From Planctomycetota bacterium (lineage in GTDB: Bacteria > Planctomycetota > PLA2 > JAEUHO01), in contig CBDCWP010000034.1 in assembly GCA_965223505.1 (NCBI GenBank), positions 190,810 through 254,809 of the forward strand: DNA of 64,000 nucleotides. The letters are read 5' to 3'. This document shows, in pieces, positions 33,787 to 48,867 of this stretch. The translations under genes were made by a program, and so were the position numbers. The notes below the pieces were generated by a model, which saw only the letters and a list, made by a program, of their open reading frames with translations, ran no database searches and was not told where the DNA came from. How positions within the stretch are numbered: position 1 is the first letter of the stretch; every line of letters starts with the position of its first letter.

Positions 33787-33891
33787 CGTCCGGAGCGGGG
33801 AGATACCGAGATACCGAGGTTTTTCTGTTCGATATTCACCGCACTCCGTATGTCTCTCCGGAGTACGGAGTCAGGACCGAATAAGAGAGAT

Positions 33892-33953
33892 ACCGAGATG
33901 AGTTGAGAAGGCCGGCCCTCCTCCGCCGCGCAGTCATCGGTTAAGACCGAGCT
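33892..33953 (+). repeat. Direct-repeat copy 1 of IS110-like non-coding end
   Basis: Near-identical to 37472-37532. Confidence 0.8.
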
Positions 33954-34685
33954 CACGCGGCTATGCGGATGATCTGCTCTGTCGTGTGCTTCTTCAATCG
34001 TGCCTCCTGACCCTACGAGCCGAAGGCTCTCATTCAACTCGGTTCTGAATTCCGGGGGCCCGTCAGCCGGGTTGATGAACACCAAAAGCCGCCTCGCAAT
34101 GGCGCCTATCGGCCCGAATTCGTAGGATGTGGGGTCTTGGGGGCCATATGCAGAATATCCATATCAACAGGCGGACCGTACTCATTGCGTGGGCATCGTG
34201 GGGTTGGTTCTGGTTCCACTCGGTGCATGTGGCGGCACGACCGTCATCACCTCCGTCAAGCCGGTCTTCCCGCAGCCGCCCGTGATCTCGTCGTCGCAGG
34301 GTGGGTTTCTCCAGTACTTCATGGACTGCGCTATCACGACCGAGACGGTCGGCGGAATGCAGGTCACCGGCCCCACCTACAACTCGGCGTTGATCGGCCC
34401 GACGTTCCGCATGCGTCCGGGGGCAGACGTCTTCCGCATCAACGTGCGCAATTTGTTTCCCGCGAACCCTGCGCAAGCGCGGACCGGCGCGTTCCCTCAC
34501 GATCGTTATACGACGAACCTGCACACCCACGGCCTCACCGTGGATCCAGGCGGTAACAGCGACAACGTCTTCCGCACAATGCCGCCGAACACGGAGAACG
34601 AGGTTCTCGTTGAGATCCCGTCTCACCAGCCGTCGGGCACGTTCTGGTACCACCCGCACAAGCACGGCTCGGCGACCTACCAATT

Positions 34686-36082
34686 GAGGGTGTACCGTTC
34701 TTTCTGTAAATGGCTCCCGAGAGAGAGGCGCTCGCTTCGCTTGAATCAGCTAGCTGATTCAAGCGAAGCGGGCGCGCCGCCATCTCCCGGGGTCAACTGA
34801 GTGGCGGATCAACGCCGTACCTTTGCAGGTCTACGACAACTTGCATTGGAGATCGACGTGACCCACCACGAACAGCGTACGCCGTGGGCCGACGCCCTGG
34901 AAGCGCTCAGCGAGAGCGGATTCGACGGCATGGCCGAGGCGATGCGAGTGCTGATCAACGAGTCCATGAGAATCGAACGCAGTGCCTTCCTCGGCGCTGA
35001 ACCGCACGAGCGCAGCGAGCAGCGTCGCGGGTACGCCAACGGGTTCAAGCCCAAGCGCGTTCGCACGCGCCTAGGCGAGATCGACGTACAGGTGCCTCAG
35101 GTGCGCGACGTCGAGGGCGGCGATGCGTTTTACCCATCGAGCCTTGAACGCGGCCAGCGAAGCGAGAGAGCGCTCACGCTGGCTTTGGCGGAGATGTACG
35201 TCCAGGGTGTTTCGACGCGCCGTGTCGAGGAGATTACGAAGGTGCTTTGCAACGGCCTTGAAATCAGCTCCACGAGCGTGTCGCGAGCAGCTGCGCTGCT
35301 CGATGAGGAGCTTTCGCGTTGGCGCACACGGCCGCTCGGGGCATTCAAGTACCTCGTGCTCGATGCCCGCTACGAGAAGGTGCGCCACGGCGGATCGGTG
35401 CGCGACTGCGCGCTGCTCATCGCCATCGGCATCGGCCACGACGGCAGGCGCAGCGTGCTGGGAACGAGCGTGAGCCTTTCGGAAGCCGAGGTTCACTGGC
35501 GCGAGTTCCTCAGCTCGCTCCAGGACCGCGGACTGCATGGCGTCGAGCTCATCACCAGCGACGGCCACAAGGGCTTGGCCGCCGCGCTCGCTGCCCGCTT
35601 CGCCGGCGTCGCCTGGCAGCGCTGCCAGTTCCACCTGCAGCAGAACGCACAAGCTTACGTGCCGCGTCAGAAGCTTCGACGCGACGTCGCCGCTGATCTT
35701 CGCGCCGCGTTCAACGCGACGTCGCGGCGCGAGGCTCAAGAGAAGCTCGAGGCCTTCGTAAAGAAGTGGGACAAGCCCGCGCCCGACTTGGCGCGTTGGG
35801 CCGAGGAGAACATCTCGCAGGGATTCACCGTGTTCGACCATGGCCTCAACGAGGCGCAACGCAAGCGCCTGCGCACCACCAACAGCCTCGAAAACCTGAA
35901 TCAACAGATCCGGCGGCGCACGCGTGTTGCCGGACTCTTTCCAAACGAAGCGTCCTTGCTGCGGCTTGCGAGCGCGGTGCTCATCGAGATCAGCGAGGAA
36001 TGGGAAACCGGACGGAGGTACTTGCCGAGGGACGACGCTTGATCAACCGCTCAGCGATTTACAGAAAGAACGTTGCTCTGCC
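34686..36082 (+). mobile_element. IS256 family insertion sequence (1397 bp), 8-bp TSD TACCAATT
   Basis: Imperfect TIRs sharing cgttctttctgtaaat; TSD at 34678-34685 and 36083-36090. Confidence 0.93.
34858..36042 (+). CDS. IS256 family transposase
   Basis: EMYVQGVSTRRV, LDARYEKVR, SDGHKGL, WQRCQFH, RTTNSLENLN. Confidence 0.95.
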   Translation: MTHHEQRTPWADALEALSESGFDGMAEAMRVLINESMRIERSAFLGAEPHERSEQRRGYANGFKPKRVRTRLGEIDVQVPQVRDVEGGDAFYPSSLERGQRSERALTLALAEMYVQGVSTRRVEEITKVLCNGLEISSTSVSRAAALLDEELSRWRTRPLGAFKYLVLDARYEKVRHGGSVRDCALLIAIGIGHDGRRSVLGTSVSLSEAEVHWREFLSSLQDRGLHGVELITSDGHKGLAAALAARFAGVAWQRCQFHLQQNAQAYVPRQKLRRDVAADLRAAFNATSRREAQEKLEAFVKKWDKPAPDLARWAEENISQGFTVFDHGLNEAQRKRLRTTNSLENLNQQIRRRTRVAGLFPNEASLLRLASAVLIEISEEWETGRRYLPRDDA

Positions 36083-46924: not shown

Positions 46925-47023
46925 CGCAATTACAACGCCTCCGCAAAGGAGTGCCTGCACCGGCTCCATCTAGAGTACTGCGAGATAACGAGTTTCTCCG
47001 TTCGATGTTCGAACGGGAGCTCC

Positions 47024-48580
47024 CTAGAGGCAGAGCAGGAAGGCCACGAGATCCTCCTTCTCTCCTCGGTTCAGATGCAACTCGAGCACGAGGTCGAAGA
47101 ACTCGACGACGTCGTGCAGTGTGGGTAGGCGGCCGTCGTGCAGATACGGCGGCGAGTCCTTGATGCCGCGCAACGGGAACGTCTTGATCGGCCCCTCCGG
47201 TCGTCCCTTGTAGAATCGTTCGACCCTCAGGTCATGCAGGTAGTCGTCGGTAAATGCCGGACCGTAGTGGCAGGCAGCGCAGCGGGCCTTGCCGTGGAAC
47301 AGCGCCTCGCCGCGCAGCTCGGCCTGCGTTGACTTCGACGGGATCAACCGCATGAGAGGTCCCAGCTTCGGCGCGGGCGCGTAGTCGATGATCGCGTTGA
47401 AGTCGCCCATCCGATTCGTAATCTGGCGCTGGGCGCCGCGCGGGCCGATCGCCTGCATCAGACCGGGATCCCCGTCGAAGTACTCCTCCACCTCCGCGAA
47501 GTGATCCAGACTTCGAATGGACCGTTTGGCGGACAGCTGCATCAGGTTGTAGTTGCCGCGCATGGTCGGCGTGTCCACGCGAAGCCTCGCCTGGTTCGGG
47601 CGGGCGTCCGGCGCGAGCTCGAAAGCGCCGTTCGTGTGCCCGTTCACGTGGCAGGCGAAGCACGACACGCCCGCGCTCGCTTCCTTGGTGACCCGGTGAT
47701 GCGTGTGGTTGAACCACGTCGTCGGCGTCGGTCGTAGCAACTCCTTCAGGCCCTCCATCTGCTCGGGTGTCAGGAGACCGTCGAAGATCTCGTAGTAGTT
47801 GGCGAGCGTGACCTCGCGCCCTTTGGTTACGTCGCCCAGCTCCTTGTGGGTCGTCAGGAACAGTGGCGCCGGGAACTCGGGCAGATACGCATCCGGAAAG
47901 TCGTGATCGACATCGATTCGGAGGTGCTCCGGATGGGCGCGGACCCATTGATCCGGAAACACCATGTGCGCGGTCGACTGCAGCGGGTGAGCCAGGGGAA
48001 GAAACGGGAACAGGCCGCGATCGCGGATGGCGTCGGGGGTGAGGCGACCCAACGCCTCCCACGAATCGACGCCTTCCGGCAAGCGCGCTACGGGGCCGGC
48101 CATGATCGGCTTGCCGCCGCTCATGGAGGCGCCGGGAATCGACTTGCCGTGGAAGTCGAAGCGACTCTTCATGTAGTGCCGCACGTCTTTCATGAGCGAC
48201 GGCTTCTGCTTCTCGCAGTGATCGAGCCACTCCGCCCAAGACATCGACAACGTCGGGCTCGACCACGAGCTCGCTCCCCGTCCGGCGTAGCGCCACAAGT
48301 CGAAGGGCGTTCGCATTCCCGGCTTTTCACTGGGGTAGGGACGCAGCTTCGCGACGAACCCGTCCCCCAGACCCCAGTCCGTGGCCGGCCTCTTCGCGCG
48401 GGCGGCCGGGCTCTGGCGCAGGTGCATCGGTCGCTCGTCCGGTTCGTACCGGACGTTGGGCTCTTGGGGCTCTTCGTCACCCGACGCGGGGGGAACGCCG
48501 GCGCCGATCACGTAGCCGACGGCAAGCGTCGTCGTCACGAGCGTCAAGCAAAGCAGTAGACGTGTCTGTCGAGACTTCAT
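47024..48580 (-). CDS. Exported di-heme cytochrome c (cytochrome c peroxidase-like)
   Basis: Signal peptide; CFACH and CAACH; TFPLRGI..SPPYLHDG. Confidence 0.88.
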   Translation of the reverse strand: MKSRQTRLLLCLTLVTTTLAVGYVIGAGVPPASGDEEPQEPNVRYEPDERPMHLRQSPAARAKRPATDWGLGDGFVAKLRPYPSEKPGMRTPFDLWRYAGRGASSWSSPTLSMSWAEWLDHCEKQKPSLMKDVRHYMKSRFDFHGKSIPGASMSGGKPIMAGPVARLPEGVDSWEALGRLTPDAIRDRGLFPFLPLAHPLQSTAHMVFPDQWVRAHPEHLRIDVDHDFPDAYLPEFPAPLFLTTHKELGDVTKGREVTLANYYEIFDGLLTPEQMEGLKELLRPTPTTWFNHTHHRVTKEASAGVSCFACHVNGHTNGAFELAPDARPNQARLRVDTPTMRGNYNLMQLSAKRSIRSLDHFAEVEEYFDGDPGLMQAIGPRGAQRQITNRMGDFNAIIDYAPAPKLGPLMRLIPSKSTQAELRGEALFHGKARCAACHYGPAFTDDYLHDLRVERFYKGRPEGPIKTFPLRGIKDSPPYLHDGRLPTLHDVVEFFDLVLELHLNRGEKEDLVAFLLCL

Positions 48581-48867
48581 CTTCGGTACCTCCTGTCATC
48601 GATCCGGAGGATAAGCCGCCTCCGAAGCAAAGACACCCGGCGCGAGATCAGTCGGTGGACGAGCTGCGGAGTCTTCCGCAGCAGGGAGGGAGTACCGAGA
48701 CCGGCTCGGAACTCCTTGCGTTGCGTTCGACCATTTTGGGAACGAGCCGACGTCTGAATCGCTTCGACGCGGACCTAGCACTTGGTCTCCGGATTTTCCG
48801 TGGCATCCGGCAGTGCCGGGCGACGCCTGAGTGTTCAAGCAGGCATCCAGGTCGGAGGTCACACGCG

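What the first reader, a model, noticed from the sequence alone, without database searches (positions are those of the whole stretch)
33802..48715. Cassette-like array of defence/immunity genes delimited by a recurring non-attC repeat
Seen: most gene boundaries downstream of the rrn operon carry a motif with core GATAC[C/G]GAG or GTAC[C/G]GAGTC, often followed by TTTTCT[G/A]TTCGA[T/C]ATTC, mostly on the + strand whatever the gene direction. Copies are at 33810, 38552, 40948, 41297, 42573, 43141, 44650-44718, 45882-45925 and 46984. The intervening genes are single and unrelated (TIR, VOC, DUF1851-like, DUF6714-like, LRV repeats, ferredoxin-like). The region also holds several duplications and IS scars. 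Inference: a repeat-anchored gene capture/shuffling platform, integron-like but without canonical attC, possibly mobilised in trans by a RAYT/HUH nuclease or an IS110-type recombinase. No such enzyme is intact in the window.
Basis: partly seen in the sequence, partly recalled or inferred. Interest (0 to 1): 0.75.

Follow-up and report, generated by a model that had tools for sequence, protein, structure and literature searches.

The report
Transposase-linked repeats crowd a defence-gene island
The recurring motif is real, but it belongs to a family of short palindromic "junk" repeats that related bacteria carry around a single-strand DNA-cutting transposase gene, so this is an unusually dense repeat cluster in an accessory gene island rather than a new integron-like gene-capture machine.

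Summary
Observation confirmed. The motif is a ~35-nt arm, RATACSGAG-CCCGG-N6-7-GTTCGAYRTTC. Seven of the genome's 16 arms lie in this 14.9-kb, low-GC locus, and all five full A arms are on the + strand. The 8-nt head RTACSGAG occurs 13 times against 0.9 expected; the next densest 15-kb stretch holds 6. Copies at 38552 and 43141 are 84-nt imperfect palindromes.

In a same-family genome (G020), inverted copies of the arm flank a ~340-aa Y1 HUH transposase gene of the RAYT/TIRYT type. They also flank a ~390-bp non-coding core and, once, a methyltransferase gene. Of 26 such transposase loci in relatives, 22 have flanking inverted repeats, and 17 of these start with the same TAC[CGA]G[AT]G head.

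The window's genome has one intact enzyme on another contig, with a related but different arm. An IS110-family element inserts exactly behind the head in 4 of 4 copies, two of them remnants in this locus.

No integron integrase or attC geometry was found. The verdict is a REP-like/TIR repeat family of a known kind.

The parts
33802..33885 (+). Composite repeat just after the stop of the TIR gene. It holds a doubled head (GATACCGAG twice), a full A arm (33806-33845), a reverse head (33844-33851) and a second-subtype arm GTACGGAGTCAGGACCGA (33863-33882).
33888..33953 (+). Head GATACCGAG followed directly by a remnant of the left end of an IS110-family element (66 nt, 95% identical to the copy at 37468).
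   Evidence: (D6)
34686..36080 (+). Intact IS256-type element (Transposase_mut, 413 aa) that splits the multicopper oxidase gene. It has 20-nt inverted ends and the direct repeat CCTACCAATT on both sides (the repeat read by eye).
   Evidence: (I24)
37468..37808 (+). Degenerate head GACACCGAG, then the IS110-family left end and a 78-codon ORF (37589-37825). The first ~190 nt match the intact C30 element's left end and gene start at 73%. The stretch is cut off by a solo IS256 end at 37809-37843.
   Evidence: (D6, D13)
38552..38635 (+). Complete 84-nt dimer: an A arm plus a diverged inverted B arm. It folds as a long imperfect hairpin (z -5.1) and starts 3 nt after a stop codon.
   Evidence: (D5)
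39073..39150 (+). A third palindromic dimer with a head-like ATACGGTAC / GTACCGTAC. It resembles the arm flanking a transposase gene in G043.
40948..40981 (+). Single A arm, 31 nt after a stop codon.
41297..41413 (+). Single A arm with head AATACCGCG. From 41314 it is the first copy of a 100-nt direct repeat whose second copy is at 42573-42672 (98%). The repeats flank an HTH + VOC gene pair.
   Evidence: (D2)
42480..42672 (+). Head GTACGGAGTC, a 35-nt tandem repeat, and the head-less second copy of the arm (42573 onward).
   Evidence: (D2, D12)
43141..43224 (+). Complete 84-nt dimer, 81% identical to 38552-38635. The changes in the loop stem keep pairing. Hairpin z -2.5. It lies 15 nt upstream of the start of the Tdi1-like gene.
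   Evidence: (D5)
44650..44718 (+). Degenerate arm: GATACCGAC, an insert of about 30 nt, then a tail-like GTCGTCGACATTCGG.
   Evidence: by eye
45879..45930 (+). Reverse head with one bulge (GACTCGGATAC) paired with a second-subtype arm GTACCGAGTCAGGACCGA.
46984..47016 (+). Weak arm (GATAACGAG ... GTTCGATGTTC), 14 nt upstream of the start of the second TIR gene.
   Evidence: E 0.061; E 0.27
48692..48712 (+). Head GTACCGAGACCGG followed by a short palindrome; head only.

Best explanation
The motif is one arm of a REP-like terminal-inverted-repeat family. This family belongs to a lineage-specific clade of long (~330 aa) RAYT-like Y1 HUH transposases, the 'TIRYT/TIRtron' kind of system.

Each arm has a conserved outer head (R)TAC[CG]G[AT]G and a subtype-specific inner part. 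Two inverted arms form an ~84-nt hairpin-forming dimer, comparable to a REPIN.

Shown in relatives: inverted arms flank the transposase gene, a ~390-bp non-coding core (MITE-like, many near-identical copies), one passenger gene, or nothing.

Inferred: the enzyme cuts and rejoins single-stranded DNA at or near the head and spreads the non-autonomous units in trans. Strand-specific insertion could give the common orientation.

In this genome the A-type arms are few and diverged, and no gene flanked by this subtype is in the assembly. They therefore look like an ageing population.

The window locus is a low-GC accessory/defence island where arms of at least three subtypes fill nearly every non-promoter gap. 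An IS110-family element that inserts precisely behind the head, and an IS256, have reshaped it further.

Why the arms pile up here is not settled. The options I see are tolerance of insertions in dispensable DNA, insertion next to existing heads, or import with the island.
For: 1. A real family. One search finds 16 arms in the genome. One search finds the arm model in 9 of 61 genomes (this one included), with 45 matches in G020.

2. Link to the enzyme.
- In G020 a 344-aa ORF lies between three + arms and two - arms that point at it.
- The ORF matches NCBIfam NF047646 'REP-associated tyrosine transposase' at E 6e-14 over positions 8-145 of 146, below the equivalog cut-off.
- Both His of the HUH motif and the Tyr of the Y-motif are invariant in 7 aligned homologues.
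- 22 of 26 homologous loci have inverted repeats on both sides at blastn-short E<1e-4. 17 of these begin with TAC[CGA]G[AT]G and 3 more with a near variant.

3. Non-autonomous units. The 10 inverted end pairs printed from G020 comprise 9 ~450-bp units with A and B ends around a conserved core and 1 methyltransferase gene in the same geometry.

4. Dimers fold as hairpins. z is -5.1, -2.5, -4.3 and -3.3, but only -1.1 for one copy.

5. Age. Mean pairwise arm identity is 0.80 here against 0.92-0.93 in G020.

6. An enzyme is present in this genome. C30:205063-206046 encodes 327 aa with Pfam Y1_Tnp at 28.1 bits (cut-off 23). Its own 27-nt inverted repeats share the head and a TTTCT block with the window arms.

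7. The kind is described in papers, of which I read passages. Di Nocera et al. 2013 (PMC3733652) describe TIRYT/TIRtrons whose TIRs can form repeat families in dimers and clusters, and name a planctomycete. Quentin et al. 2018 (PMC6006769) describe subclass 2.1, long proteins with a C-terminal HTH-like domain.
Against: - No transposase gene flanked by the A-type arm itself was found in this genome (92% complete). The resident enzyme's arms differ in their inner half.
- Single arms are not palindromes, and the head is GTAC/ATAC rather than the GTAG of classical REPs. This fits the looser TIR class better than REP proper.
- Pfam Y1_Tnp did not match the G020 protein at E<=10, and a genome search with that family missed both G000 and G020.
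- No cutting, excision or copying was observed. Contigs from 4 runs of one sample, at depth about 2-7, show no variant joint at a head.
- The explanation does not by itself account for the extreme local density (13 heads against a next-best of 6) or for 5 of 5 full arms sharing one strand.
- A second island in another genus (G027:C62, with two TIR genes and a CHAT protease) also has heads in almost every gap. That leaves room for a real link with such islands.
Confidence: 0.72

Rival explanations
1. A true cassette platform. The arms, or their heads, are recombination sites at which single accessory genes are gained, lost and shuffled. The agent would be the Y1 transposase acting on arm-flanked cargo, or the IS110-type recombinase that docks at the head. 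Function would be analogous to an integron, with different chemistry.
For: - 13 of 15 boundaries in the locus carry an arm or head, and the two without are promoter gaps (my tally).
- The genes are single, unrelated and rare in relatives. DUF6714 is in 2 of 120 other genomes, TIR342 in 1 of 120 and the 470-aa protein in 4 of 120.
- The locus has 60-63% GC, while most of the genome's contigs have 67-69%.
- At least three arm subtypes sit in one array.
- A methyltransferase gene in G020 sits between inward-pointing arms exactly as the transposase gene does.
- Two units here are bounded by direct repeats that start at the motif (D2, D6).
- G027:C62 is a second island of TIR and CHAT genes with heads in nearly every gap.
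Against: - Most arms here point the same way instead of forming inward pairs around genes.
- D6 turned out to be the left end of an IS110 element, not a cassette border.
- In G020 arms lie between ordinary genes.
- Only 1 of about 14 arm-bounded units that I counted by hand from the G020 hit list holds a passenger gene.
- The G028 homologue of DUF6714 has no arm beside it.
Confidence: 0.13
2. The repeats are mainly host regulatory signals that spread by selection rather than by transposition. They would act as terminators or RNA-stabilising hairpins at gene ends, or as operator sites of a DNA-binding protein.
For: - Arms start 3-31 nt after stop codons of co-oriented genes: 33786/33802, 38548/38552, 40916/40948, 41292/41297.
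- The dimers form stable hairpins.
- The background section of PMC3733652 says REPs have been hypothesised to play a role in transcription termination and mRNA stabilisation.
Against: - Two arms lie 14-15 nt upstream of start codons of minus-strand genes (43125/43141, 46969/46984).
- Single arms do not fold on their own.
- The flanking of a transposase gene in relatives, and the MITE-like copies in G020, point to mobility as the origin. Any such role would be secondary.
Confidence: 0.08
3. A diverged integron cassette array (a cluster of attC sites without an integrase).
For: Single small genes are followed by ~84-nt imperfect palindromes with a two-stem layout separated by an unpaired spacer. 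VOC and immunity-type genes are typical integron cargo; that point is recalled, not tested.
Against: - The outer ends are GATACSGAG / CTCGGTA, not RYYYAAC / GTTRRRY (consensus recalled).
- The only GTT/AAC pair, GTTCGA...TCGAAC, has the opposite polarity and sits in the inner stem.
- Only 2 of about 13 sites are full palindromes.
- No integron integrase is in the genome.
- The same arm flanks a Y1 transposase gene in relatives.
Confidence: 0.03

Closest known systems
TIRtrons / TIRYT (TIR-associated tyrosine transposases; Di Nocera et al. 2013, PMC3733652) and TnpA-REP subclass 2.1 (Quentin et al. 2018, PMC6006769; said there to correspond to RAYT group 1 of Bertels et al. 2017)
   Same: - A long Y1 HUH protein with a C-terminal extension that has weak HTH matches.
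- The gene is flanked by inverted repeats that are not themselves REP hairpins.
- The repeats also occur elsewhere in the genome as singles, dimers and clusters.
- Gene copy number per genome is low, 1-5 within the family.
   Different: - The described majority TIR motif is GGGGWSAS (passages); here the shared head is (R)TAC[CG]G[AT]G.
- Quentin et al. report finding no REP-like sequences beside subclass 2.1 genes. Here 22 of 26 loci have clear inverted repeats.
- I did not place these proteins in their tree, so subclass membership is inferred from length and domain layout only.
REP / REPIN-RAYT systems (E. coli, Pseudomonas; Bertels and Rainey 2011, PMC3116915, seen as search listing and abstract only)
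   Same: - Short extragenic repeats, with inverted doublets forming a hairpin of about 80-90 nt.
- A single-copy Y1 transposase gene flanked by the repeats.
- A conserved 5' tag on each repeat.
- Local clusters, like BIMEs.
   Different: - The tag is GTAC/ATAC-CGAG, not GTAG.
- Single arms are not palindromic.
- Copy number is tens, not hundreds.
- The protein is twice as long as classical RAYTs, and its NF047646 score is below the equivalog cut-off.
IS110/IS1111-family elements that target REP or attC sequences
   Same: An IS110-family transposase (DEDD_Tnp_IS110 + Transposase_20) sits in an element with sub-terminal inverted repeats. The element is inserted at one fixed point of a repeated sequence, directly after the head, in 4 of 4 left-end copies.
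   Different: That members of this family target REPs or attC is recalled, not checked in a paper here. No bridge or guide RNA was tested, and Rfam gave nothing for the left end. Two of the four copies are remnants.
Integron cassette arrays / CALINs
   Same: Single unrelated accessory genes separated by structured repeats close to the stop codon.
   Different: No IntI, no attC end boxes, and most sites are half-palindromes. The repeat is tied to a different enzyme class.

Membership tests
TIRtron / TIRYT-type repeat family | A Y1 HUH transposase homologous to TnpA-REP, with the HUH and catalytic Tyr motifs | tested here: met
   NF047646 at E 6e-14 (G020). Similar scores in 5 of 5 genomes tested, including two places in G000. 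The two His of the HUH motif and the Tyr (Y123) are invariant in 7 sequences. Pfam Y1_Tnp gives 28.1 bits against a cut-off of 23 for the G000 protein.
TIRtron / TIRYT-type repeat family | The transposase gene is flanked by inverted copies of the repeat in question | tested here: inconclusive
   Met for this arm type in G020 (3 + 2 copies), and for close variants in G001:C90 and G025:C16. In the window's own genome the only long homologue (C30) has arms that share the head but differ in the inner half. No gene flanked by A-type arms was found. The assembly is 92% complete.
TIRtron / TIRYT-type repeat family | The flanking repeats also form a dispersed extragenic family (singles, dimers, clusters) | tested here: met
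   16 arms in G000. The copies outside the window that I checked (C21, C41, C8, C26, C42) lie between my ORF calls. Dimers occur at 38552, 43141, C21 and C41. G020 has 45 matches, including tandem ends.
Classical REP / REPIN-RAYT | A 20-40-nt repeat that is itself an imperfect palindrome, tagged by GTAG at one end | tested here: not met
   Single arms show no hairpin of their own. The tag is GTAC/ATAC followed by CGAG. The definition is taken from PMC3733652 (passages).
Classical REP / REPIN-RAYT | The protein reaches the curated equivalog score of the REP-associated tyrosine transposase model | tested here: not met
   52-70 bits against a cut-off of 80.
Integron / attC array | An integron integrase gene (IntI) | tested here: not met
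   TIGR02249 gives a best score of 82 bits against a cut-off of 265 in the whole genome. The hits are ordinary tyrosine recombinases on other contigs.
Integron / attC array | attC sites with RYYYAAC ... GTTRRRY end boxes that pair as the outer stem | tested here: not met
   The outer stems are CCGAGCCCGG/CCGGGCTCGG with GATAC heads. The consensus is recalled. IntegronFinder itself was not run.
IS110-family insertion at a fixed repeat target | The same junction between target sequence and element end in independent copies | tested here: met
   4 of 4 left ends follow ...AC[CA]GAG directly. The intact copy in C30 splits the transposase gene's downstream arm between head and body.

The most novel reading that the evidence does not exclude
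The conserved head (R)TACSGAG is a shared docking point for two unrelated recombinases, the long Y1 transposase and an IS110-type enzyme. Arm-bounded single genes are moved through it, so that defence and accessory islands in these uncultured planctomycetes are built cassette by cassette. This would be a functional analogue of integrons based on single-strand HUH or guide-directed chemistry. It would explain why nearly every non-promoter gap of two islands in two genera (this window and G027:C62) holds an arm, why a methyltransferase gene in G020 sits between inward arms, and why the arms in one array belong to several subtypes.
Probability: 0.1. Interest if true: 0.75.

Novelty: new member of a known kind. 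Interest (0 to 1): 0.35.

Why it matters
This result files an apparent 'new integron' under a described though little-studied class: inverted-repeat families kept by RAYT-like Y1 transposases.

It adds four concrete points:
- A head motif shared by many arm subtypes across a planctomycete family.
- Clear inverted repeats beside long transposases of a type for which one survey reported finding none.
- An IS110-type element aimed at that head.
- Two defence-type islands where these arms fill almost every gene boundary.

The last point is worth a population-level look. Dense repeats of this kind are ready substrates for rearrangement, and they can mislead annotation and island prediction.

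Tried and rejected
- **Degenerate pattern scan of genome contigs.** It returned 112 stretches, of which 80 were listed. When all 125 loci then held were rescanned with the profile, the hits from this scan were L027 (two arms) and L078, plus weak L108 and L085. 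The rest were chance matches.
- **Exact arm pattern in metagenome contigs.** One contig was found, carrying the same dimer as L078.
- **Synteny anchor.** The 518-aa cytochrome-like gene at 47024-48580 has 65-79% identical relatives in many phyla, so it gives no synteny.
- **Reads.** Only assembled contigs of 4 runs from one sample and study were available, possibly the window's own source.
  - No joint at a head in more than one run.
  - A single contig in X2 joins 33915 to 38584 on opposite strands with 31 letters on the short side; I give it no weight.
  - Contig breaks fall at the repeats (33933, about 37500, 41343-41363, 42532-42622), as expected for repeats.
- **Pfam Y1_Tnp genome search.** It missed the long transposases of G000 and G020. 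The Y1 gene of G027:C44, 1.1 kb from an arm, has different flanking repeats of its own.
- **Rfam.** Nothing for the window beyond rRNAs and an intron. Nothing credible for the G020 core or the IS110 left end.
- **PDB sequence search with the G020 protein.** No hit.
- **Promoter idea.** The reverse strand of the arm looked ECF-sigma-like, and one copy lies upstream of an ECF sigma gene (C42). I dropped this because most arms follow co-oriented genes.
- **TA target duplication of an IS630-type MITE.** The flanks are not consistently TA.
- **Gene-plus-arm co-transfer.** The 8 loci returned for homologues of three array genes showed no arm at profile level. Only the G027 TIR homologue sits among heads.
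- **Earlier notes of this scan.** None on this place or sequence.

Full report
**What is in the sequence**

The window is the last 64 kb of a 255-kb contig of a 5.15-Mb genome in 44 contigs, most of them at 67-69% GC. Earlier notes of this scan call the organism an uncultured planctomycete.

An rRNA operon lies at 25.7-31.6 kb. Downstream, GC drops to 60-63% between 32 and 48 kb. This stretch holds single, unrelated genes:
- two TIR-domain proteins;
- two VOC/glyoxalase proteins;
- a Tdi1-like immunity protein;
- a DUF6714 protein;
- a small ferredoxin-like ORF;
- a multicopper oxidase split by an intact IS256-type element;
- several proteins without any family.

Three of these genes are rare in relatives. 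DUF6714 occurs in 2 of 120 other genomes, the second TIR protein in 1 of 120, and the 470-aa protein in 4 of 120, all at no more than 29% identity.

**The repeat**

Reading and aligning the listed sites shows a ~35-nt arm, RATACSGAG-CCCGG, a T-rich spacer of 6-7 nt, then GTTCGAYRTTC.

A profile built from nine copies finds 11 copies in the genome at E<1e-3. A broader profile finds 16 arms at E<0.01. Seven of these lie in the locus:
- five full 'A' arms, all on the + strand, at 33806, 38548, 40944, 41297 and 43138;
- two diverged 'B' arms on the - strand, at 38594 and 43182.

The B arms turn 38552-38635 and 43141-43224 into 84-nt imperfect palindromes. These two are 81% identical. They keep pairing in the loop stem through changes on both sides (by eye). 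They fold better than shuffles, with z -5.1 and -2.5.

Complete dimers also exist on contigs C21 and C41 and in another MAG, L078. One of them (C41) does not beat shuffles clearly, with z -1.1.

The 8-nt head RTACSGAG occurs 13 times in the locus against 0.9 expected from the genome-wide density, and 10 of the 13 are on the + strand. The next densest 15-kb stretch of the genome has 6. Genome-wide the head is in modest excess, 310 against 203 for the reversed control.

By my own tally, 13 of 15 gene boundaries in the locus carry an arm or a head, and the two empty ones are divergent promoter gaps. Six of the 13 rest on a head alone, a degenerate head or judgement by eye.

Besides the A type there is a second subtype, GTACSGAGTCAGGACCGA, at 33863 and 45908.

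**What it belongs to**

The arm model was searched in 60 relatives and is present in 9 of 61 genomes, this one included. One same-family genome, G020, has 45 matches.

In G020 the arm occurs as two slightly different ends, GTTCGACATTC and GTTCGAGATTC. They stand in inverted orientation around a conserved ~390-bp non-coding core in nine units that I printed. The ends are often multiplied in tandem.

The same geometry surrounds two genes there. One is a methyltransferase. The other is a 344-aa ORF between three + arms and two - arms.
- This ORF matches the NCBIfam model for REP-associated tyrosine transposases over nearly the whole model, at E 6e-14 and below the equivalog cut-off.
- It carries the His-hydrophobic-His motif and the Tyr motif. 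Both are invariant in seven homologues that share a ~190-aa C-terminal extension with weak HTH matches.

Homologues of this long protein occur in 44 of 61 genomes searched, including 23 of 28 in the same family.

I examined 26 such loci. In 22 the gene has inverted repeats on both sides, 2-270 nt from the gene. In 17 of the 22 the repeat begins with TAC[CGA]G[AT]G, and in three more with a near variant. Among them are a GATACCGAG...CGACATTCG type (G001:C90, G025:C16) and a GTACCGAGTCAGG type (G019).

The inner part differs from gene to gene.

**This genome's own enzyme**

The window holds no such gene. The genome has one long homologue on contig C30. It is 327 aa and scores 28.1 bits on Pfam Y1_Tnp against a cut-off of 23. 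It is flanked by 27-nt inverted repeats that share the head and a TTTCT block with the window's arms but have another inner half. It also has a short RAYT-like gene on C10.

No gene flanked by A-type arms was found in this 92% complete assembly. The A arms here are more diverged than those in G020, with mean pairwise identity 0.80 against 0.92-0.93. That fits an old population without an active partner, but this is inference.

**A second mobile element uses the head**

The 56-nt direct repeat that brackets the oxidase gene (33888 and 37468) is the left end of an IS110-family element.

The intact copy lies on C30 and carries DEDD_Tnp_IS110 plus Transposase_20 domains. It sits between the head GTACAGAG and the body CCAGAGCA... 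of the transposase gene's downstream arm. It shows sub-terminal inverted repeats GAGAAGGCCG/CGGCCTTCTC.

All four left ends in the genome follow a head directly. In the window, one copy is a 66-nt remnant. The other keeps the left end and a 78-codon ORF, and is cut off by a solo IS256 end.

The 100-nt direct repeat at 41314 and 42573 brackets an HTH + VOC gene pair. A paralogous pair exists on C38. How that duplication arose is unexplained.

**How it most likely works**

Shown:
- the arms flank Y1 transposase genes in relatives;
- they form non-autonomous units and hairpin dimers;
- they are extragenic.

Inferred from what is established for IS200/IS605 and RAYT enzymes:
- the enzyme recognises folded single-stranded ends and cuts beside a short conserved tag, here the head;
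- it moves units in trans;
- it inserts strand-specifically, which could give the shared orientation in one chromosomal neighbourhood.

Not explained: why this locus holds so many copies. A second island in another genus (G027:C62) has two TIR genes, a CHAT-TPR protease and many orphan genes. It also has heads in almost every gap, there on both strands. The link with such islands may therefore be more than chance. By contrast, in G020 the arms sit between ordinary genes.

**Against the integron reading**

- No integron integrase is present in the genome.
- The palindromes lack attC end boxes (consensus recalled).
- Most sites are half-sites.
- One direct repeat thought to delimit a unit is an IS end.
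- The homologue of DUF6714 in G028 has no arm.
- Contigs of four runs from one sample show no alternative joint at a head, although contigs cannot show rare forms.

No genome of the same genus is among the relatives searched.

**What is known**

Di Nocera et al. 2013 (PMC3733652; passages read) described RAYT-like genes flanked by inverted repeats instead of REPs, which they named 'TIRtrons' and 'TIRYT'. They noted that some of these repeats form families in dimers or clusters, and named a planctomycete among the rich genomes.

Quentin et al. 2018 (PMC6006769; passages read) defined subclass 2.1 as long proteins with a C-terminal HTH-like domain. They equated it with TIRYT and reported finding no REP-like sequences beside those genes.

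One full-text search for RAYT, REPIN and Planctomycetes listed no paper on this head motif in its 15 rows. I did not search further, and supplements were not read.

I therefore file the finding as a new member of a known kind. Two modest additions are the shared head and the IS110 element aimed at it.

Noticed in passing
window 29610-30283: The 23S rRNA gene (27596-31254, 3.66 kb for a 2.9-kb model) carries a group I intron (Rfam RF00028, 53.9 bits). Inside it is a 210-aa LAGLIDADG homing endonuclease ORF at 29625-30257 (Pfam E 3e-25).
   Followed up: partly
window 39177-39666: A perfect 245-bp tandem duplication lies at the 5' end of the 470-aa gene. Short-read contigs of all 4 runs skip one copy (joint 39176 to 39422). 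It may be an assembly artefact, or a true repeat collapsed by k-mer assembly. A 27-nt tandem copy at 32669 is likewise missing in 2 runs.
   Followed up: partly
window 19137-19195: A perfect 59-nt palindrome (z -10.6). A GC-rich terminator-like hairpin with a T run is enclosed by inverted heads CTCGGTAC ... GTACCGAG. It may be another subtype of the same repeat superfamily, outside the reported locus.
   Followed up: partly
G000 contig C30:203604-205012 (L192:42-1449): An intact ~1.4-kb IS110/IS1111-type element is inserted between head and body of the arm downstream of the genome's long Y1 transposase gene. IS256 copies lie on both sides of this region.
   Followed up: yes
G020:C5 and C2 (L156-L160): About 450-bp MITE-like units have a conserved ~390-bp non-coding core between A and B ends. 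Two copies 6.5 kb apart are nearly identical. Up to 4-5 tandem copies of each end occur in one unit. Rfam gives no match to the core, and its nature (RNA, or a remnant of the transposase unit) was not studied.
   Followed up: partly
G027:C62:9000-28999 (L312): A second island has two TIR-domain genes, a CHAT-TPR protein and many orphan ORFs. Heads or arms of several subtypes lie in nearly every intergenic gap, including a triple tandem GTACAGAGCCAA and an IS110-like left end behind a head at about 8128.
   Followed up: partly
window 41494-42467 and G000 C38:137501-138390: A divergent gene pair, an HTH protein with IS630-like N-terminal HTH domains plus a VOC protein, occurs twice in the genome at about 47-53% protein identity. 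The 'IS scar' may therefore be a regulator of the VOC gene.
   Followed up: no
window 47024-48580: The 518-aa exported cytochrome-c-like protein has 65-79% identical relatives in Planctomycetota, Bacteroidota, Verrucomicrobiota and Myxococcota records. That is unusually high conservation across phyla.
   Followed up: no
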